Shown here: piece after piece, positions 46,667 through 62,670 of the stretch
Layout of the letters: the number at the start of each line of letters is the position of its first letter
Numbering within the stretch: the first letter of the stretch is position 1
Translations under genes and position numbers: made by a program
NCBI GenBank assembly: GCA_964437795.1
Contig: CAYTIC010000004.1
Location: 3,475 to 67,474, forward strand
DNA length: 64,000 bases
Direction of reading: 5' to 3'
Source: an uncultured Dehalococcoidales bacterium
GTDB taxonomy: Bacteria > Chloroflexota > Dehalococcoidia > GIF9 > UBA5629
The notes under the pieces: model-generated
Database searches by the model: none
The model's input: only the letters and a program-made list of their open reading frames with translations
Told to the model about the DNA's origin: nothing

Positions 46667-46696
46667 CTCAATCTCCCGGTTTTTATTATTCTTCGT

Positions 46697-49888: not shown

Positions 49889-49916
49889 TTGACTATTGAT
49901 ACCCTTCTGTTAGAAT
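49889..49916 (+). promoter_or_regulatory. candidate promoter TTGACT-N16-TAGAAT for the downstream ligase/RdhA/phosphoesterase cluster
   Basis: -35 49889-49894, -10 49911-49916; a GACTGTCAGTC palindrome just downstream. Confidence 0.4.
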
Positions 49917-50033
49917 AAGCGACTGTCAGTCAGTTATCATCAAGATTTGTTTGGAGGGAGCCGCGGGCCAAGCAGCATTCTCACCCGATATCAAACGGGT
50001 AAATAACAGTGAATATCATAAGGAGGTGCAGGA

Positions 50034-51632
50034 ATGAACCTGGCCAACCTTGTAGTTGAAGGGATCAGGAAATTCGGGGAATACGAGTGCTGTTATTTCG
50101 AGGGGAAATGGTACACCAATGTGGAACTGGACGATATGTCCAGCCGCCTGGGCAATGCGTTGAAATCGATCGGTGTCGGCAGGGGAGACCGAGTGGTCAC
50201 GCAATTGCCGAACTGCCCGGAGATCGGGTGTACGTTCAATGCCGTATATAAGATAGGCGCCGTTGCCGTGCCTATGAATCCCATACTTCGCCCGGACCAA
50301 ATATCCCATATCTACAGGAACTGCGGCGCCGGGGTAACCATCACGACATCCGATTATCTACCCTGGATCAGGGAGGCGCAGAAAAATGCCCCGGGGCTCA
50401 AGCAGATCATTTTAGTTGACAGGGATGATGAGCCGGGCACACTCTCTTTTAAAAAGTTGCTGGAAAGCTCCAGCAGCGAGCTGAAGGTGGAGGACATGGA
50501 TGGCGAGGACCTGGCTGCGCTTATCTATACGTCCGGCACCACCGGCAATCCCAAGGGAGTTATGCACACCCACTACTCACTGTGGATCAACGCGGTGTGC
50601 TTCGCCGATTTTACCGCAATGTGCTCGCCCACAACCCTGCGTGATGTCCGCCGGGACCTCAACAAGCACACGTACAAGATCGAGGAGACCATGCAGGAAG
50701 TTACCGGACACGACCGCAACGTGCTGTTCCTGGCGGTCCTGCCGCTGTCCCACTCGTACGGGTTGTCCTTCATGAATTTCGGCAGCCTGGTCGGGGCCAG
50801 GTACGTAGTGATGAAGTGGTGGAACCCCGCGGGCGCACTCAAAATCATCGAAGATATGCGCGTAGGATATATTGCGCTGGTGCCGACCATGTACGTTCAC
50901 CTGCTTGACCAGCCCGACTTCGACAGGTATGATCTCTCATCGCTCCAGTACTGCAACTCGGGGGCCGCAGCGCTGGACACAGGCATCGCAATGAAGTGGA
51001 AGGAGAAGACGGGAGTTCATATCCATGAGGGTTGGGGCATGACGGAATCCGGCGCGACCACTTCGGGAAATCCCACCACGTGCCCACCCAAGATCGGTTC
51101 CATCGGCGTTAACATGCTCAAGTGCAACACGATGAAAGTATTCGACAACGAGGACCACGAGTTGCCGCCGGAAAGCATCGGCGAGCTGGTTATCAAGGGC
51201 CCTACGGTAATGAAGGGCTACTGGAATATGCCCGATGAAACCGCGGAGGCGCTCAAGAACGGCTGGCTGCATACCGGGGATATCGGGTACATGGATAAGG
51301 ACGGCTATTTCTATATTACCGACCGAAAAAAGGACATAATCATCCGCGGCGGGGAAAATGTATCGCCCAGAGAAGTTGAAGATGTTGTCTGTCAGCATCC
51401 CAGGGTGCTTGAAGCGGGTTGCGTGGGAATCAAGGACCGGGTATACGGGGAGGAGATAAAGGTGTTCGTCGTGCTCAGGGAGGGGGAACAGTGCAGCGAG
51501 GCAGAGATTATTGAGCATTGCAGGAAGCATTTACCCTCTTTTAAAACACCCGGCAAGGTCCAGTTCATAAGTTCGCTGCCCAAGAATATTCTGGGGAAGA
51601 TATTGAGGGCCGACCTGCGCAAGGCGGGATAG
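50034..51632 (+). CDS. AMP-dependent acyl-/aryl-CoA ligase
   Basis: YTSGTTGNPKG motif; AAGGAGGTG RBS. Confidence 0.85.
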   Translation: MNLANLVVEGIRKFGEYECCYFEGKWYTNVELDDMSSRLGNALKSIGVGRGDRVVTQLPNCPEIGCTFNAVYKIGAVAVPMNPILRPDQISHIYRNCGAGVTITTSDYLPWIREAQKNAPGLKQIILVDRDDEPGTLSFKKLLESSSSELKVEDMDGEDLAALIYTSGTTGNPKGVMHTHYSLWINAVCFADFTAMCSPTTLRDVRRDLNKHTYKIEETMQEVTGHDRNVLFLAVLPLSHSYGLSFMNFGSLVGARYVVMKWWNPAGALKIIEDMRVGYIALVPTMYVHLLDQPDFDRYDLSSLQYCNSGAAALDTGIAMKWKEKTGVHIHEGWGMTESGATTSGNPTTCPPKIGSIGVNMLKCNTMKVFDNEDHELPPESIGELVIKGPTVMKGYWNMPDETAEALKNGWLHTGDIGYMDKDGYFYITDRKKDIIIRGGENVSPREVEDVVCQHPRVLEAGCVGIKDRVYGEEIKVFVVLREGEQCSEAEIIEHCRKHLPSFKTPGKVQFISSLPKNILGKILRADLRKAG

Positions 51633-51676: not shown

Positions 51677-52681
51677 ATGCGAATATGCAAAGGCTACAGG
51701 CGGCTATCTTTCATCACAGATACGAGGGGGATTAAAAGCGCCATAGGCGAGATGCGGGGGCTTGGACATCCTCAACAGCCGGTGTTGAACAAGAGCTACC
51801 TGCCCGCGGCGGACGACCCGGTAATCGATGAGCAATGGTTCATAGACACCATAACTCAGAAGGTAGAAAGCCATCCTATGAACAGTATGGAGTACCCTTT
51901 GGACGGAGAGAGGATATTCGATTCACCCCTGGTGGGTTTTGTGAGAGGTGACGACCCGCTTCTGGCTGATTACAGGCGGATCATAGGCCCGCACCATTTC
52001 ACACCGGCTGCCATTATGGCCTGGCAGGCCAAGAGAAACGGCGTGCCTGCCCCCGACGCTGCCGACCTCAGCGTTGTTTCGTTTATCCTGCCCATAACGG
52101 GCATAACCAGGGAGGAGAATGCAGCTATGAGTGAATGGCCCTCCGAGCGCTGGGCCCAAACCAGGCTGTTGGGCGAAATATTCAGCCAGGTCATGGTGAG
52201 GGAGATTGTATCCAACCTTATGCAAAGGGGGATACTGGCCATCGCCCCCGATGTGACGCCTCTTTTCAGAAAACAGCGCTACCCCGAAGTTGGGTGGGCT
52301 TCGCCCTGGTCACACCGCCATATGGCCTATGCGGCGGGATTGGGGACATTCGGCATGCATGATTTCCTCATAACGGAGAAGGGGGCGGCACACCGCTGCG
52401 GAAGTTTTATCGTGAACCTGAAGCTGCAGCCCAACAGGTCGAGGCCGGACAACATACACGCGGGCTGCCTCCAGCACAACGGCGCCAAGTGCCTTAAATG
52501 CGCCACCAAGTGCCCGGTCGGGGCTATCGGCGAGAGAGGGCATGACAAGGAAGCCTGTTATAACCGTGTGTCCAAAACCCTGGCATACTGCAATAAAAAT
52601 TACCACATTTTCATCTATGGCTGCGGGCTGTGCTCGGTAGGTGTGCCCTGCGCATCGGCCATACCGGCCAGGAAGCAGTAA
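51677..52681 (+). CDS. RdhA/QueG-superfamily cobalamin/[4Fe-4S] protein (reductive dehalogenase/epoxyqueuosine reductase-like), cytoplasmic
   Basis: SHRHMAYAAGLGTFGMH…RCGS core resembling QueG/RdhA; two Cys clusters (Cx7CxxCxxxCP; CGLCx5C); no TAT signal. Confidence 0.55.
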   Translation: MRICKGYRRLSFITDTRGIKSAIGEMRGLGHPQQPVLNKSYLPAADDPVIDEQWFIDTITQKVESHPMNSMEYPLDGERIFDSPLVGFVRGDDPLLADYRRIIGPHHFTPAAIMAWQAKRNGVPAPDAADLSVVSFILPITGITREENAAMSEWPSERWAQTRLLGEIFSQVMVREIVSNLMQRGILAIAPDVTPLFRKQRYPEVGWASPWSHRHMAYAAGLGTFGMHDFLITEKGAAHRCGSFIVNLKLQPNRSRPDNIHAGCLQHNGAKCLKCATKCPVGAIGERGHDKEACYNRVSKTLAYCNKNYHIFIYGCGLCSVGVPCASAIPARKQ

Positions 52682-52712
52682 ATATAATGGCAATCACCAC
52701 GTATATGCGGTA

Positions 52713-52769
52713 TTGACAGGCCGCTGATATATGTTAGAATGTGGTCTGTAACTGACCGTCGGTCATTTA
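52713..52769 (+). promoter_or_regulatory. promoter TTGACA-N16-TAGAAT plus palindromic operator TAACTGACCG-T-CGGTCATTTA upstream of tetR
   Basis: -35 52713-52718, -10 52735-52740; 21-bp imperfect palindrome 52749-52769 at the expected TSS. Confidence 0.45.
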
Positions 52770-52777
52770 TAAAAACC

Positions 52778-53371
52778 ATGTCGAAACAGGCTGATCCACG
52801 GCACAGGGAGGACATACTTGAGGCGGCGCGCCGGGTTTTCCGGGAGCAGGGCTACGAGAAGGCGCGCGTGGAGGATGTGGCCAGGCTGGCGGGCGTTGCC
52901 AAGGGCACCGTTTACCTTTATTTCAATTCCAAACTTTCCATATTGGAGGCGCTGGTCGATTCGTATTATGTGATGATGCTGCAGGCGATCGTACCCCACC
53001 TGTCTGATCCTGATAGCAGGCTTGCGCTTAAAAAGGCGGTGCATGCGGGCTTTGTACTGGCGGCCCGTGAGCAAGACCTGGTCGTACTGCTGGACCTGCG
53101 CCTGGGCTATGCAAAAAACAGGAAAGTGGCGACAATCGGGAATCCTCTGGCGCTGAGGGAGATCCGGCGCTTCCTGAAGAGGTGCCACGATAGGGGCGAG
53201 CTGCGCAACTATGAAACGGACATCGCCGCTGTCTTGATGGGAGGCCTGTTGCAGTGGATAACCAAGCTGTGCCTGGTCTGGCAGGGTGATGACCTCGCCA
53301 AATACGAAGATACCGCTGTAAAAATGCTGCAGTTTGCGCTTTTTAATAGCAGCCGAAAAGGTGGTAAGTAA
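52778..53371 (+). CDS. TetR/AcrR family transcriptional regulator
   Basis: N-terminal HTH ILEAARRVFREQGYEKARVEDVARLAGVAKGTVYLYF. Confidence 0.8.
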   Translation: MSKQADPRHREDILEAARRVFREQGYEKARVEDVARLAGVAKGTVYLYFNSKLSILEALVDSYYVMMLQAIVPHLSDPDSRLALKKAVHAGFVLAAREQDLVVLLDLRLGYAKNRKVATIGNPLALREIRRFLKRCHDRGELRNYETDIAAVLMGGLLQWITKLCLVWQGDDLAKYEDTAVKMLQFALFNSSRKGGK

Positions 53372-53395
53372 AAACCGGGATACGAGGAGGACTTC

Positions 53396-54988
53396 GTGAA
53401 AAACAAAGCGGGATTGATCGCGATACTGGCGTTGTTGCTGTGTGCGCTGTTGCCTGCCTGCACGCCGGGCCAGACGTTGTCGCAACGGAGTGATCAGCAA
53501 TACGTGGTAGTCATCGTCATAGACGCCTGCCGCCCGGATTATTTCGACATCGCTGATATACCCAATATTAAGAAGCTGGCAGATGGTGGGGTCACTTATA
53601 CTGATGCCTGGGTAGGGCAGAACCCCAACGTCACGCCTCCCAGCCATGCAACCATCACAACGGGCGCCTTCCCCAGGCGGCATGGAATTCTCAACTTCCT
53701 GTGGAGGAATCCCAGGACCGGACTGGCTTACTGGTACACATACTGGGACGATGTATATACGGGGGACTATAACAAAATGATTAAGGGCAACGATGTTGTC
53801 AGCATCGGGTCGCTGTACAAGCAGAAGTTCCAGGGAGCCAGGGTCGCCGCAGTGGGATCGGGCAAGTTTTATGCGGTGGCTTCCATGGCGGCCGATGACA
53901 GCGACTATATACTCTTCCTGAATGCCGCCGGGGTGGTCAATCCTGAGGCGGAGTCACCCGACAGCTTCGAGGTGAGCGGGGTAAAGGGCCACCTGGCCCC
54001 TCAGGAGATCATGAAGGACCCTGCATTGAACCGGCCCAAGGGGAGTGGTTGGGATGCTGACAACTGGGCGACGGATGTGGCGCTCAAGCTATTTGAAAAA
54101 GAGAGGCCGCAAGTGCTGTATCTAAGTCTCTCTGAAACCGATGAGGCCGGCCACTGGAGCCTCTCTATCAATGACGCCAACGTTATGGGCAGTTGCGTCA
54201 GCAATGCTGACAGGCAGATCGGCCGCTTGATGGAGGCGTACAGCAAGGCCGGGATCTTCGACAGGACGCTCTGGGTGATCGTTGCCGACCACGGCATGAC
54301 ACCGACACTACATACAATACCGCAGAAAGCCGTCGATGCGGAGATTACCAAAACCGGTACCCGGGTGCAGGTGCAGAATCCGGAGACATTGCTCTTCGAT
54401 CCTTCAAAGACTGCCCAGGCGGTTGAGAACGTGATCAAAGCCGGCATACCCGGCATTAAAGGCGCTTATATCCATGTGCAGAAGCCCGACGGGAGTTGGA
54501 CCACCGAGCCGGCGCCGTCCTCTGCCACATTGATTACGGGGGACCTGGACAGGTGTTTCCTCTACCTCAAATCTACCGATACCGGACCGAACAGCGCCGA
54601 CTTTACACTCATAGAAAAAGAGAACTGGAGGCAGGACTGGTCGATACTGGGGGCCAAACCGATGCTCAGCAGCCACGAGACCATTACATGGAACGACCAG
54701 CATATCCCACTCATCATATCGGGGCCGGGAGTGAAGAAGGGGGTGAAACTGAACACTCCTGCACGGCTGGCCGACATCGCTCCCACCGTGGTTTCCCTGC
54801 TGGGCATAACACCGGAGAAGATGGACGGGGTGGTATTGGCTGACTGCATGGAGCGGGCAACTGTACAACAGGTTGAGGCACAGAAAGAAGTGACCCGTTT
54901 CCTGGAACCGTTGAGGGCTGCCCTCAAGGCTTCCTCCCAGGCCGACCTGGCCGACAACGAGAAACAGTTCGGTCAAAAAGAACGGTAG
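53396..54988 (+). CDS. secreted alkaline-phosphatase-superfamily type I phosphodiesterase/nucleotide pyrophosphatase family lipoprotein
   Basis: Lipobox LLPAC; VVIVIDACRPDY…TPPSHATITTG metal/nucleophile motifs; GTG start with GAGGAGG RBS. Confidence 0.8.
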   Translation: MKNKAGLIAILALLLCALLPACTPGQTLSQRSDQQYVVVIVIDACRPDYFDIADIPNIKKLADGGVTYTDAWVGQNPNVTPPSHATITTGAFPRRHGILNFLWRNPRTGLAYWYTYWDDVYTGDYNKMIKGNDVVSIGSLYKQKFQGARVAAVGSGKFYAVASMAADDSDYILFLNAAGVVNPEAESPDSFEVSGVKGHLAPQEIMKDPALNRPKGSGWDADNWATDVALKLFEKERPQVLYLSLSETDEAGHWSLSINDANVMGSCVSNADRQIGRLMEAYSKAGIFDRTLWVIVADHGMTPTLHTIPQKAVDAEITKTGTRVQVQNPETLLFDPSKTAQAVENVIKAGIPGIKGAYIHVQKPDGSWTTEPAPSSATLITGDLDRCFLYLKSTDTGPNSADFTLIEKENWRQDWSILGAKPMLSSHETITWNDQHIPLIISGPGVKKGVKLNTPARLADIAPTVVSLLGITPEKMDGVVLADCMERATVQQVEAQKEVTRFLEPLRAALKASSQADLADNEKQFGQKER

Positions 54989-55027
54989 ATTTCTATATAG
55001 AGGAAGATTAGTTCAGGAGGATGATGA

Positions 55028-55579
55028 ATGTCGAATAAACTCATGCTGCATTTAGTATTAATCACCGTTGCTCTGTTTACAGCCTCTGTGGCCGCATGCA
55101 CGCAGACACCTGCCGGCGCGGGCAAAGAGCTTTCTTTCAGTCCGCTAACGTATACAAACGACCAGTATGGTTTCTCGCTGCAATATCCCGACAACTTTAA
55201 GGAGGATAAATCCAAGGAGAAGGACACGATGCTTTTCAATGCCGTCGGGCCGCTGGTAGGTGGAAGGATACCGGTGTTGACCGTCAATATTTTCGACCGT
55301 AACAGGGCGCAGGAGCAGGCCATCGAGCTGATCAAGGCCGGCAGCGGCTCGGATATTAAGATCACACCGCTCAGGGAGATAACGCTGCAGGATGGCAAGA
55401 CCAGTGGCAAGATAAGCACGACAGCCTGGTACCATAACGATGCTAAATTCGATATGCGCGGATTGTCGCTGGGTGTGGTCAAAGGTGAATACCAGATCAC
55501 GGTCACGCTGACATCCATCTTTGCCATGTATAACGAGGATAAGTATATGGAGATTCTCAATACGTTTACGTTGAAATGA
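55028..55579 (+). CDS. hypothetical lipoprotein
   Basis: Signal peptide with VAAC lipobox; AGGAGG RBS. Confidence 0.55.
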   Translation: MSNKLMLHLVLITVALFTASVAACTQTPAGAGKELSFSPLTYTNDQYGFSLQYPDNFKEDKSKEKDTMLFNAVGPLVGGRIPVLTVNIFDRNRAQEQAIELIKAGSGSDIKITPLREITLQDGKTSGKISTTAWYHNDAKFDMRGLSLGVVKGEYQITVTLTSIFAMYNEDKYMEILNTFTLK

Positions 55580-55631
55580 AGCGGCATTGTCCATGTGAAC
55601 AGGTAACAAATTGTTGAAGGGGAATGAGATC

Positions 55632-56465
55632 ATGAGTAAGTTGGAAAGTTACCGCAGGGCCGGCAGGCGAATATACGACAGGCTACACCTGGCTTCTTAC
55701 CCTGTGGGCATCAGGTATATTAAAAGTGAAAGTGAGATACCACAGGGAAGTATGAGGCCTTCGGCGCTGGGACAAAAAAGTAGTCTGTGCCAGGCATTCA
55801 CCTATGCCAGGCGTTTCGGCTTCACCATGGCTATGACAGCCGACGATAATTTCTGCACACCCGCCACGGCCATGCACCGTTGGGTAGATATACCCTTCGA
55901 AGTGTTGGTGGAGAGCCAGGTTATCCAGGGATGGCACAAAGATGCAGAGGCTGAGAAAAAGAGGATAGAGCACGGGCAAAAAATGATTGGCAAAGCCAAT
56001 CTTCCGAAGCTGTTGAAATATAAAGGATTCATCTGTTTCCCGTTGCATAATGCTCCAGCCAGGCCGGACAGCGTGCTTATTTATGGTAATGGTGAAAATG
56101 TAATGCACATAATACATGCGCTTACATATGGAGGCGAGAATTTTCCCACCTCGTCCTTTGAAGGATTTGCCGAGCCGTGCCTGAAAGGTGGCCTGATCCC
56201 TTTTATTACCGGGGTCCCGCAGGTAATAATTCCCGGCATGGGTGACCGCTCTTTCTCGGGGACTTACGATTACGAGATAGCCATCGGCATACCGGCAGAA
56301 CTCATCTTCGATGCCGAGCGCGACCTGTTTAAGACGGGTGGGCCGATGAACATGGGCCAGCCGGCCAAAACACTGCTTCCACAAAGCCTGACTGAAAACA
56401 TCACACCCGGTTTCAAATTCATGAGAGAAAAGTTCGATGCAAAGAAGGGTAAAAAAGCGGTCTGA
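55632..56465 (+). CDS. hypothetical protein, DUF169-like (tentative)
   Basis: In-frame ATG with AAGGGGA RBS; family assignment from memory only. Confidence 0.45.
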   Translation: MSKLESYRRAGRRIYDRLHLASYPVGIRYIKSESEIPQGSMRPSALGQKSSLCQAFTYARRFGFTMAMTADDNFCTPATAMHRWVDIPFEVLVESQVIQGWHKDAEAEKKRIEHGQKMIGKANLPKLLKYKGFICFPLHNAPARPDSVLIYGNGENVMHIIHALTYGGENFPTSSFEGFAEPCLKGGLIPFITGVPQVIIPGMGDRSFSGTYDYEIAIGIPAELIFDAERDLFKTGGPMNMGQPAKTLLPQSLTENITPGFKFMREKFDAKKGKKAV

Positions 56466-56502
56466 ACCTCGATACTGCCTGTTTTGATTTAAGGGGTAAA
56501 AC

Positions 56503-57639
56503 ATGCGTGGATTTATAAATGCAAATACGGCCGGCTTCCTGGCCCTTTTGCTTATCGCCGCAATAGCGGTTTCAGGATGCGTTACCCCGGTCCCAGTTGC
56601 GTCTACCGAGCCGGTTCCCGTACAGGCAAAGGAACAGGAAGCAGCTGTCATTGAGCCCACACCCCCGGGTATGGTCAACACAGTGCTGGGACCCATATCT
56701 CCCGACCAACTCGGCCAGGTGCTGGTGCATGAGCACTTCGTTTTCAGCCGTGCGGGATGGTACGCGGATGCAACGATTGCCCCGTATGACCGCGGCGCTG
56801 CCATGCAGGCCGGGCTTAATGCCTGCCTGCTGGCCAGGGCAGCGGGGATCAATGCTATTATCGATGCAACGCCCAACGATTGCGGCAGGGACCCCGAGCT
56901 TTACAGGGGGCTGAGCAGGAAAACCCTGATGAACATAATCTGCTCAACCGGGCTTTATTACGAGAAGGGAGGCGCTCCGGGCTACTGGGAGGCCAAGGCA
57001 CAGCTCGGCCAGGATATATCCAGAATGATAGCCGAGCTTTTTATCAAAGAGATCAGGGATGGTATCGGCGCCACCGGTATCAGGGCGGGTGTCATCAAGG
57101 TCTCTTCGAGCGAGATTATCACACCTTATGAAGAGGCTGTCTTCAAGGCGGCTGTGATAGCCCAAAAGGCTACCGGTGTGCCGATTATCACACATACGCA
57201 GGGGCCAGGACCGGGCATAGCGCAGGCGGACCTTTTCATCAGGGAAGGCGCCGACCTTAAAAAAATCATGATCGGGCACGTTTCCAATAACGCTGATATC
57301 GGATATCATCAGGCCATAATCGAGAAGGGATTGAATGTGGGATTTGACCAGCTCGGGTTGAACTATATACCGGACGAGCAAAATGTGCGTAATATCGCTG
57401 ATCTGTGTAAACGCGGATATGCCGATCGGATCATGCTCTCCCAGGATACGGTCAATTACTGGCTGGGACGTTCACTTGTAGAAGATGCGCCGCTGAAGGT
57501 CACCGAAGCGATCTCTAAATGGAAAATCGACCACGTTGCACGGGACATTTTACCTGCGCTGAAAAAGGCCGGGGTCACCGATGAACAGATCACGCAGATG
57601 ATGGTTGACAATCCACGTAACATGTTCGCGGGGCGGTAG
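56503..57639 (+). CDS. phosphotriesterase (PTE/aryldialkylphosphatase, amidohydrolase superfamily) family lipoprotein
   Basis: Signal peptide with AVSGC lipobox; HEH metal motif (LVHEHFVF), IKV, ITHT, GH, SQD typical of PF02126. Confidence 0.8.
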   Translation: MRGFINANTAGFLALLLIAAIAVSGCVTPVPVASTEPVPVQAKEQEAAVIEPTPPGMVNTVLGPISPDQLGQVLVHEHFVFSRAGWYADATIAPYDRGAAMQAGLNACLLARAAGINAIIDATPNDCGRDPELYRGLSRKTLMNIICSTGLYYEKGGAPGYWEAKAQLGQDISRMIAELFIKEIRDGIGATGIRAGVIKVSSSEIITPYEEAVFKAAVIAQKATGVPIITHTQGPGPGIAQADLFIREGADLKKIMIGHVSNNADIGYHQAIIEKGLNVGFDQLGLNYIPDEQNVRNIADLCKRGYADRIMLSQDTVNYWLGRSLVEDAPLKVTEAISKWKIDHVARDILPALKKAGVTDEQITQMMVDNPRNMFAGR

Positions 57640-57684
57640 TACGTGCGATACTGAATTAGATATACTTCTATAGGAGTAGTAGTC

Positions 57685-59076
57685 ATGAATAAGATTGAAG
57701 AAAGCATCAGGGAATTTGCTCTAAAGGCCGGCGCCGGGCTGGTCGGCATGGCCGGGCCAGAGAGGCTGGATGGTCCGCCTTCGCTAGATCCCGGTTATAC
57801 CTTGAGAGGGGCCAAATCGGTTGTATCTTTGGTTATACCCATGAATGTGCCCGCTATCTACGATTTTCTAAGTAAAAAATCATCCGGGCCGCACAATGTC
57901 GACCAGATGCGCATGAACCAGCGGGTACACCGCATAGCCGGAGAGGTCGCAGATTACATAGAGAGTCTGGGTCATAAGGCAAAGGCGGTGCCTGCAAATA
58001 ATACTTACCGCCGCGCACTGGACCCTTTCTGCACGCGTCCCAGCTTCTCCCACCGCTTCGGCGCCGTGGTGGCCGGATTGGGCACATTCGGGCTTTCGGG
58101 CAATGTGGTCACAAAAGACTTCGGCGCAGCGGTCTACCTGGGCTCGGTTGTGACTACTGCCGTGCTTGAATCAGACTCCTCATTGCCCGCGCGACATGCG
58201 ATGGACACCCGCTGCCGCACGTGCAAGCTGTGCGACAAATCCTGCACCCTGCGCATGTTCGAGGACAACGAAGAAGAGTACCTTCTGTTGAACGGCGAAT
58301 TGCACGCGCGCGGCAAGCGCAATAACGTCGATTTCTGCAACCTTTCATGCTTTGGGCTGCATGCCATATCACAGGATAAAAAATGGTCCAACTGGGGGCG
58401 GCATGTGGTCAAGGAATGGCTGGACAACCAGCCGGACCCGCAGAAAAGCGAGTATGTCAGGGGTATGCTCATGAGGCAGGGCGCAATGAGCGGCGACAGC
58501 ACACCGCGCTTCGAGGTCATCCGCCGCGTTGGCGCGAAGCTCTGGCCCAGGGAGGCCATCGAAGATTCCTTGCCTGATTACAAAGACCTGCCGGAGGCGG
58601 AGAAGGACATTTGCGATTTGCTGGTAAAAGCAGAGGAGAGGTTGGGGATATATGGACTTAAGGATCCCTATGTGCTGACCTGCGGACAGTGTGCGCTGGT
58701 CTGCGGGCCGGACTTTGAGGAGACTAAGAAACGTTTTGATCTGCTGACGCAGAGCGGCTACGTTGTCCCCGGACCCGAAGGAAAGATGGTGCGCGTAAAA
58801 ACGCTGGAGGAGTATTTTAAGGTTAAGGAACAGTATCCGGTCAAAATCGATCGCTCGCAGATAATGAAGGATGCCAATGCTTCTGGCTCGGTTTGGCTGC
58901 GCGACTACTTCGGATTTGAGCCGGCGGGTGAATTGAAGAACAGCATCTATCAGGCCAGGAATAAAAAGGCCTGTTCAAAGGCCGGCCTGGCTGGCAAGGA
59001 AGCCAGGCCCTTGTATATCGGCAACCCGGGCTACCTGTTGTCGGTAATCGCACCCAAGAAGAAAAAGAAGAGGTGA
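57685..59076 (+). CDS. RdhA/QueG-superfamily cobalamin/[4Fe-4S] protein, cytoplasmic
   Basis: IREFALKAGAGLVGMAG N-terminus; SHRFGAVVAGLGTFG core; CRTCKLCDKSC and CGQCALVCGP ferredoxin motifs; no TAT signal. Confidence 0.65.
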   Translation: MNKIEESIREFALKAGAGLVGMAGPERLDGPPSLDPGYTLRGAKSVVSLVIPMNVPAIYDFLSKKSSGPHNVDQMRMNQRVHRIAGEVADYIESLGHKAKAVPANNTYRRALDPFCTRPSFSHRFGAVVAGLGTFGLSGNVVTKDFGAAVYLGSVVTTAVLESDSSLPARHAMDTRCRTCKLCDKSCTLRMFEDNEEEYLLLNGELHARGKRNNVDFCNLSCFGLHAISQDKKWSNWGRHVVKEWLDNQPDPQKSEYVRGMLMRQGAMSGDSTPRFEVIRRVGAKLWPREAIEDSLPDYKDLPEAEKDICDLLVKAEERLGIYGLKDPYVLTCGQCALVCGPDFEETKKRFDLLTQSGYVVPGPEGKMVRVKTLEEYFKVKEQYPVKIDRSQIMKDANASGSVWLRDYFGFEPAGELKNSIYQARNKKACSKAGLAGKEARPLYIGNPGYLLSVIAPKKKKKR

Positions 59077-59170: not shown

Positions 59171-60880
59171 ATGAGGTTATTGATGCTGTTAAAAAAGTTT
59201 ACACATTCCCTTATTGCGCTATTACTCGTGATCTCGTTTACAATTTGTATCCCGGCTAATAGTGCCATAGCTGATGAAGCGGCGCCACCGTCAGCGAAAT
59301 ACCTGGTGTTGATAAGCATCGACTCATGCCGGCCGGACTACCTCGCCCTGACGCCGACGCCTAACATCGATAGTTTAAAAGCGTCCGGAACTTACTACTC
59401 CAACTCCTGGGTCGGGCAGGTGAGCAACGACACACCGCCCGGGCAGACCAGCATGTCGACGGGATCATTTGGTAAAAACACTCGCATTATAAGCTTCAAC
59501 TGGAGGGACAGAGTCGCACTGCCTGCGGATTGGGAGTTCAAGCTCGCCATCACTAACAAGGTGCTGGAGCTGATTAAGGCAACAGGATGGGATGCGCTCG
59601 GCCTATGGTATCAGCAGAACATGGTGCGCAAGACCATCGAGGGTAACTTTATAACCAATTTCGATAATGTCGTATCCGGATTTTTCAACAGTTATATCAG
59701 GAAATCCGGCGTCCCCAGCATCGGTTCTCTCTATAAAAAGGCCAATCCCGGCGCCAAGGTGGCTGCAATAAGCTGTGATAAGTGGTATGCCTGTGCCGGC
59801 CTGGCCGCGGATAGCGCTGATTACACGGTGTTCGCTGAGGCCAAGGGAGTAGCACCGATCGGTTACAACAATGTTTCACATCTGAAGCCGGTGGGAGTGA
59901 CAGGGATGCTGCCGCCGGATTACATCATGAACGATCCGTCTCTGATCAGGGAAGTGAAGGACGAACGCGATACCGACACCTGGGCAACCGACGTGGCCCT
60001 GCAGGTGATTGAGAAGACCGGCCCTCAGGTACTGCTTATCAACCTGCCGGCAACCGACGATGCCGGGCATGCCACCGGTGGGATCACCGATCCGCAAAAG
60101 ATGTCCGCTGTAATTGCCAACGTCGATGTGCAGATCGGGCGCATCATAGATGCCTATAAAAAAGCGGGCAAATATGATGACACAGTGTGGGTAATCACCT
60201 CGGACCATGCCATGACTCCTCTCAGCATTAAAATAGAGCAACCGGTAATAGATAAACTGCTGGTAGAGGCACGCAACTTTTCCAACGTGGGGACCCACGT
60301 ATACCTGATGGACCAATCGCAGACACAGCAGGTGGCAGAGAAGCTTACAGAGGCTGGCATACCCGGCATTTTCGGCGCCTATTACAAGGTCAAGTCATCA
60401 AGCGGCAGCTACAGCTATGTGCCTGCCAGGGCTACCGCGCCAAAAGTGGAGGGGAACCTGGATACATGTTACAGGTATTTGCTTGATACCTATGCGGGCG
60501 AGAGCAGCCCGGATATTGAGTTGCTCCCAGTGGAGAACTGCCACATTAACTGGACCATGTTCGATTGCAAACCCTTTGTTGGCAACCACGATTCCATCTC
60601 CTGGCTGCAGCAGCATAATATCCTGATCATATCGGGTCCCGGGACCAAAAAGGGCTTCGTCTCTGAAAGCCCTGCACGGCTGGTCGATATTGCTCCGACG
60701 GCACTGACGCTACTGGGGATCAGGCCGGAGCGCATGGACGGCATTGTGCTGTCCGATGCACTGGAGTCGCCTACCACCACACAGCTCCATACTCAGATGA
60801 CGGTGAACGGCCAGCTCATTCCCCTGGAGCAGGCACTGAAAGAGCGGTCTGAGGCCGATATCAAGGCGCAAGTTAAGTAA
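59171..60880 (+). CDS. secreted alkaline-phosphatase-superfamily type I phosphodiesterase family protein (paralog of 53396)
   Basis: Signal peptide; LVLISIDSCRPDY…TPPGQTSMSTG. Confidence 0.8.
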   Translation: MRLLMLLKKFTHSLIALLLVISFTICIPANSAIADEAAPPSAKYLVLISIDSCRPDYLALTPTPNIDSLKASGTYYSNSWVGQVSNDTPPGQTSMSTGSFGKNTRIISFNWRDRVALPADWEFKLAITNKVLELIKATGWDALGLWYQQNMVRKTIEGNFITNFDNVVSGFFNSYIRKSGVPSIGSLYKKANPGAKVAAISCDKWYACAGLAADSADYTVFAEAKGVAPIGYNNVSHLKPVGVTGMLPPDYIMNDPSLIREVKDERDTDTWATDVALQVIEKTGPQVLLINLPATDDAGHATGGITDPQKMSAVIANVDVQIGRIIDAYKKAGKYDDTVWVITSDHAMTPLSIKIEQPVIDKLLVEARNFSNVGTHVYLMDQSQTQQVAEKLTEAGIPGIFGAYYKVKSSSGSYSYVPARATAPKVEGNLDTCYRYLLDTYAGESSPDIELLPVENCHINWTMFDCKPFVGNHDSISWLQQHNILIISGPGTKKGFVSESPARLVDIAPTALTLLGIRPERMDGIVLSDALESPTTTQLHTQMTVNGQLIPLEQALKERSEADIKAQVK

Positions 60881-60907: not shown

Positions 60908-61498
60908 GTGAAAAAGCCGCTGAAAATCATACTTGCGGTGCTGGTGGTGCTGGTAGCAGGTGGGGCTATCGGCTACTGGTCCGCCATGTGGTCCTATGAT
61001 CCTCTGTACCGGGCAGGCACAATTAAAAATGGCCCGTGGATGACAAACCTCACTATCGGCAGCCGGGAAGCCGGCCTGCACATCAAGGCTGTCATAGCGA
61101 TGACTTCCCTTCTGGCACTGACAAAATCGGAGGCTGTCTACTATCAGGCGGAGGTAGATGGGAGCGGCAAACCTCTCAGCACGAAATGTGTTTATCGGAT
61201 TGATGGCAAAGGGCTTGATGCAGGATGGTGGAGTATCACAGTTTATGGACAGGACAATTTCCTCATACCAAATGAGAAGAATATCTACTCATATAACATG
61301 GACACCGTAAAAACTAGTCCAGACGGCAGCTATAGCATCTACCTGTCGTCAAGCCCACAGGAACAGAACTGGCTGCCCGTGGGCACCGGAGACCAGAAAA
61401 TAACCCTTCTTCTGCGCCTGTATAATCCGGGTCCCACCGTTTATGCCGACCCGGGAGGTATAGAGCTTCCCCGTATCGTTAGGGATGGCTGCAAATGA
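60908..61498 (+). CDS. DUF1214 family protein (secreted/membrane-anchored)
   Basis: GTG start with GAGGGGA RBS; N-terminal TM; family call from memory. Confidence 0.55.
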   Translation: MKKPLKIILAVLVVLVAGGAIGYWSAMWSYDPLYRAGTIKNGPWMTNLTIGSREAGLHIKAVIAMTSLLALTKSEAVYYQAEVDGSGKPLSTKCVYRIDGKGLDAGWWSITVYGQDNFLIPNEKNIYSYNMDTVKTSPDGSYSIYLSSSPQEQNWLPVGTGDQKITLLLRLYNPGPTVYADPGGIELPRIVRDGCK

Positions 61499-62022
61499 AG
61501 AAGTGGATTTTGTGGACAGCACTGGCGACAATTCTTTTCGCGCTGGCCGTGCATCTTGCCGTGGTGGCCTACATTCCTTACAAAGTCATGGACACGGTCA
61601 TGAATGTCCGCTTCAAGGATTTGCCGCGCAACACCATGAATTTCGGCCCGCCGACGACTGTTGAATCCAGGGATGTGGTCAGACCTTCACCGGATATCCT
61701 CTACTCAATTTGCATATACGATGTTTCAAAGAAACCCCTCCTCATAACATGTCCGTTGCCTGAAGGGTATTGGTCAGCCTCGTTTTATGCCGATAATACG
61801 GACAATTTCTTTGTTATTAACGACAGACAGGCAAGGTCAAACCCTGTGCAGCTTTTACTGGTGGGTAAAAATAACACAGCTACTGAACTGGCCAATGCAA
61901 TAACCGTCAAGGCACAGAGCGATAGGGGTCTGGTACTGATACGCATGTTAGTGCCGGACGAGAATGCGCTGCCCTCGCTGATAGATGTCCAGCAGAAGGC
62001 CGGTTGTAAACAATTGGAATAG
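61495..62022 (+). CDS. DUF1254 family protein
   Basis: ATGA overlap with the previous gene; N-terminal TM; DUF1254/DUF1214 are a known co-occurring pair. Confidence 0.55.
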   Translation: MKKWILWTALATILFALAVHLAVVAYIPYKVMDTVMNVRFKDLPRNTMNFGPPTTVESRDVVRPSPDILYSICIYDVSKKPLLITCPLPEGYWSASFYADNTDNFFVINDRQARSNPVQLLLVGKNNTATELANAITVKAQSDRGLVLIRMLVPDENALPSLIDVQQKAGCKQLE

Positions 62023-62071
62023 GCTATTTCCAATTGTGATGGATGAGTTTAGTATTAACAAGGAGATAGAT

Positions 62072-62599
62072 ATGGCTAAGAAAGATAAAACCGAAGCGGA
62101 CTATGACAAAGAGCTGGCGGCAGTCTGCGGCCTGTTCTGTCCTTCTTGTACCCTCTATATCGGTACTCAGGAAGATCCGCAGAGGCTTAAATTCCTGGCT
62201 GAAAGATTCAAGCTCCCGCCGGAAGAGGTCCGATGCGGCGGATGCCGTTCGGAGTTGCGCTCCTTTTACTGTCGGGATATCTGCAAGATGGCCAGGTGCG
62301 CTGCTGAAAAGGGGATCGAGTTTTGTGGAAGCTGCGAGTCATATCCCTGCCAGGAGTTAAAAGATTTCCAGTGCGCCATGCCGCACAGGATCGAGCTTTG
62401 GAGTTCGCTGGACCGCATCCGTGAGGTCGGTCCCGAGATATGGTATTCCGAGATGTTGGAGCACTACGCGTGCCCCTCCTGCGGGACGATCAACTCCGCT
62501 TACGATTTCCAGTGCCGCAAGTGTGGTGGCGAGCCGGGCAGCAGGTATGTGGCGGAGCATAAGGATGAGATAGTCAGGCAGCTTGGCAAAATGAAATAA
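62072..62599 (+). CDS. Cys-rich DUF3795-like protein
   Basis: AAGGAG RBS before ATG 62072; multiple CxxC pairs (CPSC, CGGC, CGSC, CPSC, CRKC). Confidence 0.55.
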   Translation: MAKKDKTEADYDKELAAVCGLFCPSCTLYIGTQEDPQRLKFLAERFKLPPEEVRCGGCRSELRSFYCRDICKMARCAAEKGIEFCGSCESYPCQELKDFQCAMPHRIELWSSLDRIREVGPEIWYSEMLEHYACPSCGTINSAYDFQCRKCGGEPGSRYVAEHKDEIVRQLGKMK

Positions 62600-62630
62600 T
62601 TCATTTTTACGAAGGTATTGGCTACGAAAT

Positions 62631-62670
62631 GAGGGGCGGACTTTTAAGTCCGCCCCTCATTATTTTATTT
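62631..62670. terminator. bidirectional intrinsic terminator between convergent genes
   Basis: gaggggcggactt-tt-aagtccgcccctc hairpin followed by attattttattt on the + strand. Confidence 0.7.

What the first reader, a model, noticed from the sequence alone, without database searches (positions are those of the whole stretch)
51677..59076. Two divergent RdhA/QueG-superfamily paralogs without TAT signal or RdhB anchor
Both proteins carry the SHR(H/F)…AGLGTFG core and two Fe-S motifs but lack a twin-arginine signal, and no small membrane anchor gene is adjacent. They resemble cytoplasmic catabolic dehalogenases or QueG rather than respiratory RdhA. The first has a non-canonical first cluster spacing (Cx7CxxCxxxCP) and is short (334 aa); the second is classical (CxxCxxCxxxC … CxxCxxxCP).
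Basis: partly seen in the sequence, partly recalled or inferred. Interest (0 to 1): 0.6.

Follow-up and report, generated by a model that had tools for sequence, protein, structure and literature searches.

The report
Two orphan B12/iron-sulfur reductase-like genes
Two cytoplasmic proteins in a Dehalococcoidia-type genome share the core of the vitamin-B12/iron-sulfur reductase class that holds reductive dehalogenases and the tRNA enzyme QueG, yet belong to neither family, are mislabelled in databases as "epoxyqueuosine reductase", and sit in a TetR-controlled breakdown island beside exported phosphate- and sulfate-ester hydrolases, so they probably catalyse an undescribed reductive step.

Summary
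Both ORFs are real and match the description. ORF-A is 51677-52681 (334 aa) and ORF-B is 57685-59076 (463 aa). Each has an invariant S-H-R...G-L-G-x-F-G core and two [4Fe-4S] motifs. Neither has a Tat or hydrophobic signal, and flanking gaps of 44-96 nt leave no room for rdhB.

They are not QueG. TIGR00276 scores are 25 and 28 bits against a cutoff of 200. The D-Y-H motif, the catalytic Asp and the HEAT tRNA domain are all missing.

They are not RdhA. TIGR02486 scores are 23 bits against a cutoff of 160, and PF13486 does not hit.

Their only structural relatives in the PDB are RdhA, QueG and then CblC, at low TM-scores of about 0.3. The invariant Arg aligns with QueG Arg141, which lies under the corrin ring.

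They represent two separate conserved families with no characterised member. Family A had 2250 hits and spans Dehalococcoidia, Desulfobacterota and Spirochaetota. Family B is smaller and often tandemly duplicated.

Both families recur with each other, DUF169, TetR, a CoA ligase/SCP2/MFS set, and phosphodiesterase, sulfatase or alkyl-sulfatase genes. A hydrolase of these types is directly adjacent to B in 30 of 70 loci.

Best reading: cytoplasmic class-III cobalamin reductases with a catabolic role and unknown substrate. Dehalogenation is possible but unproven.

The parts
49889..49932 (+). Promoter-like site (TTGACT-16-TAGAAT) upstream of the ligase-A unit, followed by the half-site GTCAGTCA (49925-49932)
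   Evidence: The consensus scan gives 10/12 matches with a TG extension. GTCAGTCA is the only copy in the 64-kb window. It equals the right half of the 17-bp operator palindrome found in L090-L092. Function is inferred.
50034..51632 (+). AMP-forming acyl-CoA ligase, 44 nt upstream of ORF-A
   Evidence: Pfam AMP-binding 1.8e-82 and NCBIfam long-chain-fatty-acid--CoA ligase subfamily. A homologous ligase (median 70% identity) lies at -1 or -2 of family A in Dehalococcoidia loci; 15 of 80 loci carry one.
51677..52681 (+). ORF-A: family-A class-III-B12-like Fe-S protein (334 aa). Key residues: S212-H213-R214, A220-G226, H239-R240, and Cys 264/272/275/279/294/305/316/319/325
52713..52765 (+). Promoter-like site (TTGACA-16-TAGAAT, 52713-52740) plus the palindrome TGACCG-T-CGGTCA (52753-52765); candidate TetR operator
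   Evidence: It is the best promoter match in the region, 11/12. The palindrome is unique in the window at 0 mismatches. A perfect 17-bp version, TGACTGAC-C-GTCAGTCA, sits at the same position after the same promoter in L090, L091 and L092, while the surrounding spacer has diverged.
52778..53371 (+). TetR-family regulator (the longest ORF starts at 52739; the called start is 52778)
   Evidence: Pfam TetR_N 1.3e-16; the gene call in L001 gives 197 aa. A TetR gene is directly adjacent to family B in 20 of 70 loci.
53396..54988 (+). Exported (lipoprotein-type signal) AlkP-superfamily phosphodiesterase / nucleotide pyrophosphatase-family hydrolase
   Evidence: Pfam Phosphodiest 4.8e-34. The N-terminus MKNKAGLIAILALLLCALLPAC has KD15 2.99.
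55028..55579 (+). Small lipoprotein with weak PsbP-like similarity
   Evidence: Pfam PsbP_2 at E 0.0037, below the cutoff. It has a signal peptide and is conserved in L088 and L090-L092.
55611..56465 (+). DUF169 protein (cytoplasmic, uncharacterised); a recurrent partner of both families
   Evidence: Pfam DUF169 2.1e-36. It occurs in 15 of 80 family-A loci and 23 of 77 family-B loci, and at position -2 of B in 10. No solved relative exists and no functional literature was found.
56503..57639 (+). Exported phosphotriesterase-family (PTE) hydrolase, occupying the variable hydrolase slot directly upstream of ORF-B
   Evidence: Pfam PTE 1.9e-57. NCBIfam OPH scores 139 bits against a cutoff of 500, so it is a family member and not an OPH equivalog. 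In sister loci this slot holds an SdsA-type alkyl sulfatase (L086-L091) or both genes (L085).
57685..59076 (+). ORF-B: family-B class-III-B12-like Fe-S protein (463 aa). Key residues: D73-Q74, Y108..D113, S122-H123-R124, G131-G136, and Cys 177/180/183/187/218/222/333/336/340. It has a ~110-aa insert and a ~120-aa helical C-terminal extension
59171..60880 (+). Second exported Phosphodiest-family hydrolase
   Evidence: Pfam Phosphodiest 5.5e-27; signal peptide. Conserved downstream of B in L085-L092.
60908..62599 (+). DUF1214 (60908-61498), DUF1254 (61495-62022) and DUF3795 (62072-62599): the tail of the same + strand gene string
   Evidence: Pfam labels come from the L001 gene calls. Both DUF1214 and DUF1254 have hydrophobic N-termini. 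Conserved in L089.
62628..62661 (+). Strongest terminator-like hairpin (15-bp stem, 9 GC pairs, T-rich tail); probable end of the TetR...B...DUF3795 unit
   Evidence: This is a consensus match only.

Best explanation
ORF-A and ORF-B are founding examples, in this window, of two distinct and so far uncharacterised families of the class III cobalamin / two-[4Fe-4S] reductase superfamily, whose known members are RdhA and QueG. Both are soluble cytoplasmic enzymes of a TetR-controlled catabolic island. They are neither tRNA-modification enzymes nor respiratory dehalogenases.

Proposed mechanism:
1. A low-potential donor delivers electrons to the distal [4Fe-4S] cluster. The donor is not encoded in this window; in some sister loci an HdrC/HdrB-like Fe-S + CCG pair or a PNPOx-type flavoprotein lies next to B.
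2. Electrons pass to the proximal cluster and then to a base-off cobalamin. The cobalamin sits on the nitroreductase-like N-terminal domain, with the invariant Arg of the S-H-R motif (A R214, B R124) under the corrin ring, as Arg141 is in QueG.
3. Co(I) attacks a carbon-heteroatom bond of a small organic substrate and expels a leaving group, either a halide or an oxygen-linked group. Family-specific residues replace QueG's D-Y-H/Asp and RdhA's Tyr as proton donors: in A, K199/R201/Y202 and the RdhA-like H239-R240; in B, Y108/R110/D113.

Likely substrates, from context: for A, a carboxylic acid imported by an MFS transporter and probably activated by the adjacent CoA ligase (plus SCP2 in sister loci). 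For B, probably the organic moiety released outside the cell by the exported phosphotriesterase, phosphodiesterase, alkyl-sulfatase or sulfatase that always occupies the neighbouring slot.

Shown: superfamily fold and motifs; failure of the QueG and RdhA membership tests; cytoplasmic location; conserved synteny; multi-copy nature.

Inferred: cobalamin binding, the direction of electron flow, the chemistry, the substrates and the regulon.
For: Fold: with AF2 models of pLDDT 84 and 90, the only PDB folds matched are PceA, NpRdhA, the RDH complex and QueG, followed by CblC/MMACHC and nitroreductases.

Sequence:
- All 106 family members hit both TIGR00276 and TIGR02486, but only weakly.
- Profile A versus profile B gives 97% probability, E 7e-11, through the cofactor domain.
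- B residues 1-192 align with E. coli QueG residues 7-208.
- A's invariant H239-R240 aligns with the PceA Arg305 position; 8q4h reads 'PRHRI' there.
- All eight canonical cluster Cys are invariant.

Not QueG or RdhA.

Catabolic role:
- B is multi-copy in 27 of 70 loci, with up to 4 copies.
- B is directly adjacent to a phospho- or sulfo-esterase in 30 of 70 loci, while such genes are only 69 of 758 genes in those loci.
- TetR is adjacent to B in 20 of 70 loci, and DUF169 lies within 3 genes in 23 of 70.
- A has the conserved order SDR/AMP-ligase/SCP2/A/MFS/PDE in Dehalococcoidia.
- A and B co-occur in 18-21 of 77 B loci and 11 of 80 A loci.

Regulon: a conserved promoter plus a 17-bp palindrome lies upstream of TetR in L090-L092, and the unique half-site lies downstream of the ligase-A promoter.

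Precedent: Payne et al. (PMC4646009) explicitly predicted further uncharacterised B12/[4Fe-4S] families.
Against: - No cofactor has been demonstrated. Class III enzymes have no diagnostic cobalamin sequence motif (PMC4646009), so B12 binding rests on fold and one aligned Arg.
- Structural similarity is limited to the core: TM-scores are 0.28-0.38, and the best Foldseek E-value for A is only 8e-4.
- The Tyr above the corrin ring, conserved in QueG, PceA and NpRdhA, has no counterpart at the aligned position (A T162, B Q74).
- The hhalign mapping in the cofactor domain has moderate confidence (75-97%).
- The window has no cobalamin uptake or salvage gene and no obvious electron donor.
- Family A also occurs in many loci with unrelated neighbours, so the hydrolase or ligase link is not universal.
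- The hydrolases are exported while A and B are cytoplasmic, so any coupling must pass through transport.
Confidence: 0.6

Rival explanations
1. They are genuine catabolic reductive dehalogenases, functionally like NpRdhA/BhbA. They would remove halogens in the cytoplasm from halogenated alcohols, phenols or acids. For A the substrate might be a CoA ester. For B it might be the leaving group freed from halogenated organophosphate or organosulfate esters by the neighbouring PTE, PDE or sulfatase.
For: - The best sequence match of A in the PDB is an RdhA (8q4h, E 4e-5 as a single sequence, 1.2e-6 as a profile; 24% identity over 179 structural columns).
- A keeps an invariant His-Arg at the PceA Arg305 position.
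- Tandem multi-copy families are typical of rdhA.
- The host is a Dehalococcoidia.
- One neighbouring alpha/beta-hydrolase (L108:6298-7221) has haloalkane-dehalogenase models as its best NCBIfam hits (151 bits).
- Tat-less, RdhB-less putative RDases have precedent in the literature (PMC6737245).
Against: - TIGR02486 scores 23 bits against a cutoff of 160, and there is no PF13486 hit. PF13486 is the domain that published surveys use to call an RDase.
- The RdhA catalytic Tyr is not at the aligned position, and B lacks the Arg as well (Y151, as in QueG).
- The HLD-like hit is below its cutoff (265). Its cluster mates are only 21-31% identical to it, and the window has none.
- Nothing in the island is specific to halogens.
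- The families are abundant in peat, lake sediment and anaerobic digesters, where a more general substrate seems likelier.
Confidence: 0.2
2. They are Fe-S (or Fe-S/flavin) redox proteins that kept the RdhA/QueG scaffold but no longer bind cobalamin. They might act as electron-transfer or reductase partners for DUF169 or another neighbour.
For: - The fold of the N-terminal domain is nitroreductase-like, and nitroreductases (NfrA2) appear among the weak structural matches.
- The canonical Tyr, the D-Y-H motif and the catalytic Asp are missing.
- There is an extra ninth invariant Cys.
- No B12 genes lie nearby.
- DUF169 is a constant partner of unknown role.
Against: - The Arg that lies under the corrin ring in QueG is invariant in both families, and the surrounding S-H-R...G-L-G-x-F-G core is the most conserved part of both proteins.
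- The next-best structural matches after RdhA and QueG are the B12 chaperones CblC/MMACHC, with probability 0.99-1.0 for B.
- Nitroreductase matches have probability of 0.35 or less.
Confidence: 0.12
3. They are divergent epoxyqueuosine reductases (QueG isoforms), as most pipelines annotate them.
For: - JGI and NCBI pipelines name many family members 'epoxyqueuosine reductase'.
- B's N-terminal 190 residues align with QueG from its first helix onward.
- The QueG-type Arg141 is conserved.
Against: - TIGR00276 scores 25 and 28 bits against a cutoff of 200, and no member does better than E 2.8e-10.
- Genuine QueG carries PF08331 + PF13484, while no member of A or B carries any Pfam domain in the precomputed column.
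- D-Y-H aligns with D-Q-x in B and falls in a gap or on Q-T-R in A. The catalytic Asp aligns with T117 in B and W207 in A. B. subtilis mutants at these residues lose Q production (PMC5175355).
- A ends 9 residues after its last Cys, so it has no tRNA-binding domain. B's C-terminal extension shows no HEAT hit.
- Up to 4 copies per locus, TetR control and catabolic neighbours do not fit a housekeeping tRNA enzyme.
Confidence: 0.03
4. They are maturation or activation factors for the neighbouring hydrolases, for example a new kind of anaerobic sulfatase-maturating enzyme.
For: - B is directly adjacent to a sulfatase, alkyl sulfatase or AlkP-family gene in 30 of 70 loci.
- Known anaerobic sulfatase maturases are multi-[4Fe-4S] proteins (general knowledge).
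Against: - The window's Phosphodiest enzymes read 'NVTPPSH', a Thr-nucleophile motif of the NPP type, not the C/S-x-P-x-R of formylglycine enzymes. This is read directly from the translation and compared with general knowledge of the family.
- MBL-type alkyl sulfatases and PTE need no such modification.
- Only 8 loci carry a PF00884 sulfatase.
- A and B are not radical-SAM proteins.
- The partner hydrolase type varies while B stays constant.
Confidence: 0.04

Closest known systems
QueG, tRNA epoxyqueuosine(34) reductase (TIGR00276; PDB 5D6S, 5D08, 5D0B)
   Same: - Cytoplasmic, with no signal peptide.
- Nitroreductase-like N-terminal cofactor domain followed by a 2x[4Fe-4S] ferredoxin module.
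- The A-G-L/I-G-x-x-G core.
- The Arg that lies under the corrin ring (Bs Arg141) is invariant in both A and B.
- B starts with the same N-terminal helix/strand layout and has a Tyr where QueG has one ('SYMYL' / 'AAVYL').
- It is the best Foldseek match for B (E 5e-8).
   Different: - 25 and 28 bits against the 200-bit cutoff.
- No PF08331.
- The D-Y-H motif and the catalytic Asp are absent.
- No HEAT-like tRNA-binding domain: A has no C-terminal domain at all, and B has an unrelated insert and extension.
- Nine rather than eight invariant Cys.
- A has Cx7C spacing.
- Multi-copy and TetR-regulated, with catabolic neighbours.
Respiratory reductive dehalogenase RdhA (PceA 4UQU; RDH complex 8Q4H; TIGR02486 / PF13486)
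   Same: - The same cofactor-domain plus ferredoxin architecture.
- It is the best PDB sequence hit for A and for both family profiles (8q4h, about 1e-6).
- A keeps His-Arg at the PceA Arg305 position.
- Families expand into tandem paralogs, as rdhA does.
- The host lineage is Dehalococcoidia.
   Different: - No Tat signal and no RdhB.
- No PF13486 hit, and 23 bits against the 160-bit cutoff.
- The catalytic Tyr246 equivalent is not found at the aligned position.
- B lacks the Arg.
- TM-scores are only about 0.3.
Catabolic, cytoplasmic reductive dehalogenases (NpRdhA 4RAS/6ZXX, BhbA type)
   Same: - Cytoplasmic, Tat-less, with no membrane anchor and a catabolic role.
- Structural match to B over about 228 columns at rmsd about 5 A.
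   Different: - NpRdhA-type enzymes are about 700 aa and belong to the RDH/PF13486 family. Some carry a fused reductase module (PMC10463259 abstract).
- A and B are 334 and 463 aa with no such modules and no RDH-family score.
CblC/MMACHC B12-processing chaperone (3SOM, 5UJC)
   Same: Nitroreductase-like domain that binds cobalamin base-off. It is the next structural match after RdhA and QueG.
   Different: CblC has no ferredoxin module and no Fe-S clusters. It uses a Gln rather than an Arg under the corrin ring (PMC5175355).

Membership tests
QueG (tRNA epoxyqueuosine reductase) | Score at or above the curated cutoff of the equivalog model TIGR00276 (200 bits) | tested here: not met
   A scores 25.3 bits and B 28.3 bits. 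The best E-value among 55 A members is 2.8e-10, and among 51 B members 1.2e-9.
QueG (tRNA epoxyqueuosine reductase) | Strictly conserved D-Y-H motif (St D100-Y101-H102; Ec 'GRDYHK') | tested here: not met
   hhalign places B's D73-Q74-M75 at this position. In A the motif falls in a gap after 'ERWAQTR', or on Q161-T162-R163 via the A-B alignment. 'DYH' occurs in 0 of 51 B members. The defining residues come from PMC4646009.
QueG (tRNA epoxyqueuosine reductase) | Catalytic Asp (Bs D134 / St D130; Ec 'FVDSAP') | tested here: not met
   It aligns with T117 in B ('FCTRPS') and W207 in A ('VGWASP'). Its role is described in PMC5175355.
QueG (tRNA epoxyqueuosine reductase) | C-terminal HEAT-like tRNA-binding domain and PF08331 (QueG_DUF1730) | tested here: not met
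   A ends at residue 334, 9 aa after its last Cys. Neither protein has a PF08331 or HEAT hit. B's C-terminal half aligns to QueG only at noise level, with the Fe-S motif misplaced. Genuine QueG hits all carry PF13484 + PF08331.
QueG (tRNA epoxyqueuosine reductase) | Arg under the corrin ring (Bs Arg141) | tested here: met
   A R214 and B R124, both invariant in the S-H-R motif, align with Ec R146, which is the catalytic Asp + 7.
Reductive dehalogenase RdhA (TIGR02486 / PF13486) | Score at or above the RDH subfamily cutoff (160 bits), or a PF13486 hit | tested here: not met
   A scores 23.5 bits and B 22.9 bits. There is no PF13486 hit at E <= 0.01. The best family E-values are 1e-6 for A and 6e-12 for B.
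Reductive dehalogenase RdhA (respiratory type) | N-terminal twin-arginine (Tat) signal peptide | tested here: not met
   No hydrophobic h-region exists in A, B or any of the 106 homologs. A's R8-R9 lies in a conserved, structured, charged segment.
Reductive dehalogenase RdhA (respiratory type) | Adjacent rdhB membrane-anchor gene | tested here: not met
   The flanking intergenic gaps are 44, 96, 45 and 94 nt, and all neighbours are identified as other genes.
Reductive dehalogenase RdhA (any type) | Catalytic Tyr (PceA Y246) with an Arg or Lys partner (PceA R305) | tested here: inconclusive
   Arg: A has the invariant H239-R240 at the aligned position, and B has Y151. Tyr: none lies at the position aligned via QueG Y101 (A T162, B Q74). 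Other invariant Tyr residues (A Y202, Y218; B Y59, Y108) might reach the active site.
Class III cobalamin + 2x[4Fe-4S] reductase superfamily (RdhA/QueG) | Nitroreductase-like cofactor domain followed by a ferredoxin module, with 8 cluster-ligating Cys | tested here: met
   Foldseek against the PDB returns only RdhA and QueG, then CblC and nitroreductase. The 8 canonical Cys are invariant in both families, and the profile-profile links are. TM-scores are low (0.28-0.38), so these are distant members.
Class III cobalamin + 2x[4Fe-4S] reductase superfamily (RdhA/QueG) | Bound base-off cobalamin | not testable with these tools
   This needs purified protein (UV-vis, EPR, metal analysis) or a cofactor-aware structure prediction. 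No sequence motif is diagnostic (PMC4646009).

The most novel reading that the evidence does not exclude
Families A and B, together with their constant partner DUF169, would be new class III B12 enzymes performing a Co(I)-dependent reductive carbon-heteroatom cleavage other than dehalogenation or epoxide reduction. One possibility is reductive removal of an oxygen-linked leaving group, such as a sulfate, phosphate, ether or hydroxyl group, from the organic moieties of organosulfate and organophosphate esters. This would define a previously unknown anaerobic route for degrading such esters, including surfactants, flame retardants, pesticides and natural sulfated or phosphorylated lipids. In this route a variable exported esterase (PTE, alkyl sulfatase, NPP-type phosphodiesterase or sulfatase) is paired with a constant cytoplasmic B12 reductase module.
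Probability: 0.15. Interest if true: 0.8.

Novelty: new variant of a known kind. Interest (0 to 1): 0.55.

Why it matters
**New enzyme families.** Only two reaction types are established for class III B12 enzymes: reductive dehalogenation and epoxyqueuosine reduction. Payne et al. (2015) predicted that further families exist but said they would be hard to find, because no cobalamin motif is diagnostic. This work delimits two such candidate families with concrete signatures:
- the S-H-R...G-L-G-x-F-G core;
- Cx7CxxCxxxCP in family A;
- a 4+2+3 Cys pattern in both families;
- a conserved Arg under the corrin ring.

**Annotation.** The work shows that the database name 'epoxyqueuosine reductase' for these proteins is wrong. 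That affects thousands of entries and any metagenomic inference about queuosine or organohalide metabolism in Dehalococcoidia, Desulfobacterota and Spirochaetota.

**A testable hypothesis.** The recurrent pairing with exported phospho- and sulfo-esterases, DUF169, TetR and a CoA ligase narrows the search for a substrate. Cultured carriers exist for experiments: Desulfatibacillum alkenivorans DSM 16219 for family A, and more distant relatives in Clostridium butyricum and C. tagluense.

**Limit.** The function itself remains unproven.

Tried and rejected
2. HMMER profile searches of A1 and A2 against PDB sequences still aligned only the core and the first Fe-S motif. Mapping of the cofactor domain had to come from hhalign.
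3. The QueG homolog search returned only Enterobacteriaceae at 83-100% identity, so the QueG profile added little depth.
4. No RdhA full-length reference sequences were obtainable, so no proper tree was built. Placement relies on curated HMM scores and profile-profile comparisons.
5. Literature searches for 'QueG-like', 'QueG homolog' or 'QueG paralog', for new class III families, and for DUF169 function found nothing relevant.
6. The haloalkane-dehalogenase-like neighbour is below its cutoff, sits in a heterogeneous cluster, and is absent from the window. It is kept only as a weak lead.
7. PTE as a conserved partner was rejected. It occurs in only 2-3 loci, and the slot is usually an alkyl sulfatase.
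8. A sulfatase-maturase role was rejected (see rivals).
9. The exact window palindrome is not found in other loci. A one-base variant, a perfect 17-bp palindrome, is conserved in the three closest loci.
10. Plasmid-borne Firmicute relatives (27-40% identity) have uninformative neighbourhoods.
11. A search for a third paralog or a bona fide queG in the window found none. The rest of the genome could not be examined.

Full report
**1. What is there**

The two ORFs exist exactly as described. ORF-A is at 51677-52681 (334 aa) and ORF-B at 57685-59076 (463 aa), both on the + strand.

They lie in an unbroken + strand string of genes:
- acyl-CoA ligase (50034-51632)
- ORF-A
- TetR (52778-53371)
- Phosphodiest-family hydrolase (53396-54988)
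- small PsbP-like lipoprotein (55028-55579)
- DUF169 (55611-56465)
- phosphotriesterase-family hydrolase (56503-57639)
- ORF-B
- second Phosphodiest hydrolase (59171-60880)
- DUF1214, DUF1254 and DUF3795 (60908-62599)

Intergenic gaps are 24-96 nt. A cluster mate at 90% identity or more is named 'Dehalococcoidia bacterium', and the same genes lie on an NCBI contig of 225 kb and on a Logan contig from SRR13723397.

**2.

Translation of the motif coordinates confirms the following:

| Feature | ORF-A | ORF-B |
|---|---|---|
| Core | SHR / AGLGTFG | SHR / GLGTFG |
| First Fe-S motif | CLQHNGAKCLKCATKCP | CRTCKLCDKSC |
| Middle Cys | within the second segment | CNLSC |
| Last Fe-S motif | CYNRVSKTLAYCNKNYHIFIYGCGLCSVGVPC | CGQCALVC(GP) |

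The Cx7CxxCxxxCP spacing occurs in 55 of 55 family-A sequences, so it is a family trait. Both families have nine invariant cysteines in a 4+2+3 pattern. QueG has eight (Cys188...Cys247; PMC5175355).

Neither protein has a hydrophobic N-terminus, and none of 106 homologs has one. ORF-A has an R8-R9 pair, but it lies in a charged, family-conserved and confidently modelled helical segment.

By contrast, PTE, both PDEs, the PsbP-like protein, DUF1214 and DUF1254 all have signal-peptide-like N-termini. Three of them carry a Cys in a lipobox-like position.

There is no room for an rdhB gene next to either ORF.

The word 'paralogs' overstates the similarity. BLASTP aligns 48 residues at 42% identity. 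Homology through the cofactor domain appears only with profiles (97% probability, E 7e-11; A 101-286 against B 27-194).

**3. They belong to the RdhA/QueG superfamily but to neither family**

*Curated models.* Each protein hits both models weakly. QueG TIGR00276 gives 25 and 28 bits against a cutoff of 200. RDH TIGR02486 gives 23.5 and 22.9 bits against a cutoff of 160. The same holds for all 55 + 51 family members scanned. Pfam gives nothing above threshold: no PF13486 and no PF08331. Every genuine QueG retrieved carries PF13484 + PF08331.

*Structure.* AlphaFold2 models are confident (A: pLDDT 84, pTM 0.86; B: pLDDT 90, pTM 0.90). Foldseek against the PDB returns only PceA, the RDH complex, NpRdhA and QueG, followed by the B12 chaperone CblC/MMACHC and nitroreductases. 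TM-scores are low, about 0.3, so only the core is shared.

*Defining residues*, taken from the two QueG structure papers:

| Known feature | Family A | Family B |
|---|---|---|
| QueG D-Y-H | falls in a gap after the invariant 'ERWAQTR' | D73-Q74-M75 |
| QueG catalytic Asp ('FVDSAP') | W207 | T117 |
| QueG HEAT-like tRNA domain | absent; A ends 9 residues after its last Cys | no HEAT signal; the ~120-aa extension aligns only at noise level |
| PceA Arg305 | H239-R240, invariant (8q4h reads 'PRHRI') | Y151, as in QueG |

QueG membership therefore fails on four defining features and passes on one. RdhA membership fails on model score, Tat signal and RdhB, and is inconclusive on the catalytic dyad.

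**4. They are conserved, widespread and mis-annotated families**

*Family A.* There are 2250 hits at E <= 1e-3. The 120 listed hits are 65-90% identical and 330-345 aa long, and many are auto-named 'epoxyqueuosine reductase'. In species-representative genomes there are 280 relatives. They occur in Dehalococcoidia, many Desulfobacterota (Smithella, Desulfatibacillum alkenivorans DSM 16219, Desulfosudis oleivorans, Desulfocicer), Spirochaetota and one Thermoplasmatota MAG. Distant relatives (27-40% identity) occur in Clostridium, Paenibacillus and Peptoclostridium replicons.

*Family B.* It is narrower. In the 50%-identity library, 99 clusters score <= 1e-30 and only about five are full-length. 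Its N-terminal module also occurs in 320-400-aa proteins and in roughly 725-836-aa proteins that look like two modules fused.

I found no paper describing either family. Payne et al. had predicted that more such B12/[4Fe-4S] families exist.

**5. Gene neighbourhood**

*77 family-B loci from metagenomes*:
- B is multi-copy in 27 of 70 loci with three or more genes, with up to 4 copies in one locus.
- A phospho- or sulfo-esterase is directly adjacent in 30 of 70 loci. These genes make up only 69 of the 758 genes in the loci.
- Per B gene, the adjacent esterase is an SdsA-type alkyl sulfatase at -1 (11 cases), a Phosphodiest 610-aa protein at -1 (9), a Phosphodiest 675-aa protein at +1 (8) or a PF00884 sulfatase at +1 (4).
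- A TetR gene is adjacent in 20 of 70 loci.
- DUF169 lies within three genes in 23 of 70 loci.
- Family A is present in 18-21 of 77 loci.

*The closest relatives (L085-L092)* have the same island as the window. The slot between DUF169 and B holds an alkyl sulfatase, the PTE, or both. The hydrolase is variable while DUF169 and B are constant.

*80 family-A loci from genomes*:
- In Dehalococcoidia the order (abhydrolase) SDR > AMP-ligase > SCP2 > A > MFS > Phosphodiest x1-3 is conserved.
- In Desulfobacterota the orders are TetR < DUF169 > DUF362 > (B >) A > (MBL >) 'family C', where family C is a third QueG-like family of about 292 aa present in 21 of 80 loci.
- Many family-A loci have unrelated neighbours.

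**6. Regulation (inferred)**

The two best promoter-like sites lie upstream of the ligase-A pair (49889-49916) and in the gap between A and TetR (52713-52740). The strongest terminator-like hairpin follows DUF3795 (62628-62661).

Just after the second promoter lies the palindrome TGACCG-T-CGGTCA, unique in the window. In L090-L092 the same promoter is followed at the same place by a perfect 17-bp palindrome, TGACTGAC-C-GTCAGTCA, while the spacer sequence has diverged.

The half-site GTCAGTCA occurs once in the 64-kb window, 9 nt after the -10 of the ligase-A promoter-like site. About 1.35 copies are expected anywhere in the window, so landing in that 330-nt gap is roughly a 1% event. This suggests that one TetR regulon covers both A and B.

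**7. Interpretation**

The best-supported reading (confidence about 0.6) is that A and B are cytoplasmic class III cobalamin/[4Fe-4S] reductases of two new families with a catabolic role.
- *Electron path and chemistry:* electrons would pass from the distal cluster to the proximal cluster and then to base-off cobalamin. Co(I) would then cleave a carbon-heteroatom bond. All of this is inferred by analogy with QueG and RdhA.
- *Substrate of A:* probably a carboxylic acid or its CoA ester, given the ligase, SCP2 and MFS neighbours.
- *Substrate of B:* probably the organic product of the exported esterases.
- *Dehalogenation specifically:* possible (about 0.2) but lacks specific support.
- *Other rivals:* loss of cobalamin binding (about 0.12), true QueG function (about 0.03) and hydrolase maturation (about 0.04).
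- *Cofactor:* no cofactor, substrate or electron donor has been shown.

**8. Verdict**

This is a new variant of a known kind of enzyme, of moderate-to-good interest (0.55). The strongest points are the clean failure of both membership tests, the size and conservation of the families, the systematic mis-annotation, and a reproducible synteny that makes the function experimentally approachable.

Noticed in passing
window 39833-49703 (- strand): A four-gene set resembling class-I benzoyl-CoA reductase or 2-hydroxyacyl-CoA dehydratase plus activator: two BcrAD_BadFG ATPases (43757-44542, 44593-45474) and two HGD-D subunits (45494-46666, 46697-48058). It is flanked by a third HGD-D (39833-41200), two AMP-ligases (41299-42858, 48186-49703) and a PadR regulator (42927-43490). 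HGD-D genes also lie next to B-DUF169 in L116 and L117.
   Followed up: partly
L074:1034-1912 and 20 other family-A loci: A third QueG/RdhA-like family ('family C', about 292 aa, with a QueG-like N-terminus and the core 'S-L-K-H...G-M-G-E-I-G') is the commonest neighbour of family A in Desulfobacterota (21 of 80 loci). It is absent from the window.
   Followed up: partly
P0461, P0466, P0475, P0491 (hits): Proteins of about 725-836 aa whose N-terminal 195 residues match family B. They have a second QueG_DUF1730-like hit near residue 330 and a second Fe-S region near residues 630-715. They appear to be two QueG-like modules fused in tandem, mirroring the tandem B-B genes.
   Followed up: partly
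L102, L106, L108, L111, L120, L121 (e.g. L102:229-1410 and L102:3800-4594): A recurrent module B > Fe-S protein (393 aa, 2x[4Fe-4S]) > CCG-domain protein (264 aa, PF02754, HdrB-like) > DUF169. This is a possible electron-transfer partner for family B. It is not present in the window.
   Followed up: partly
L108:6298-7221: An alpha/beta-hydrolase next to TetR-B whose three best NCBIfam hits are haloalkane-dehalogenase models (151, 143 and 112 bits, all below their cutoffs). Its cluster mates are only 21-31% identical to it.
   Followed up: partly
L118:287-685 and 4 other loci: A 132-aa PNPOx-type (FMN/F420-class) flavoprotein directly upstream of family B in five loci. It is another candidate redox partner.
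   Followed up: no
window 24400-32071: A dense signalling cluster: four FHA-domain proteins (three of 368-545 aa, plus a 228-aa FHA + Trans_reg_C regulator), a Ser/Thr protein kinase (28902-29921) and a PP2C phosphatase (29921-30724).
   Followed up: no
window 22659-24326 (+): An unusual domain fusion in one 555-aa ORF: trypsin-like peptidase + purple-acid-phosphatase N-terminal domain + fibronectin type III + Redoxin/AhpC-TSA.
   Followed up: no
window 60908-62022 (+): DUF1214 and DUF1254 are encoded as two separate, overlapping genes (4-nt overlap), each with its own hydrophobic N-terminus. They lie at the tail of the island and are conserved in L089.
   Followed up: no
window 42001-44000: G+C drops locally to 0.47 against 0.52-0.59 elsewhere. 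The dip is around the PadR gene and the 43490-43757 intergenic region.
   Followed up: no
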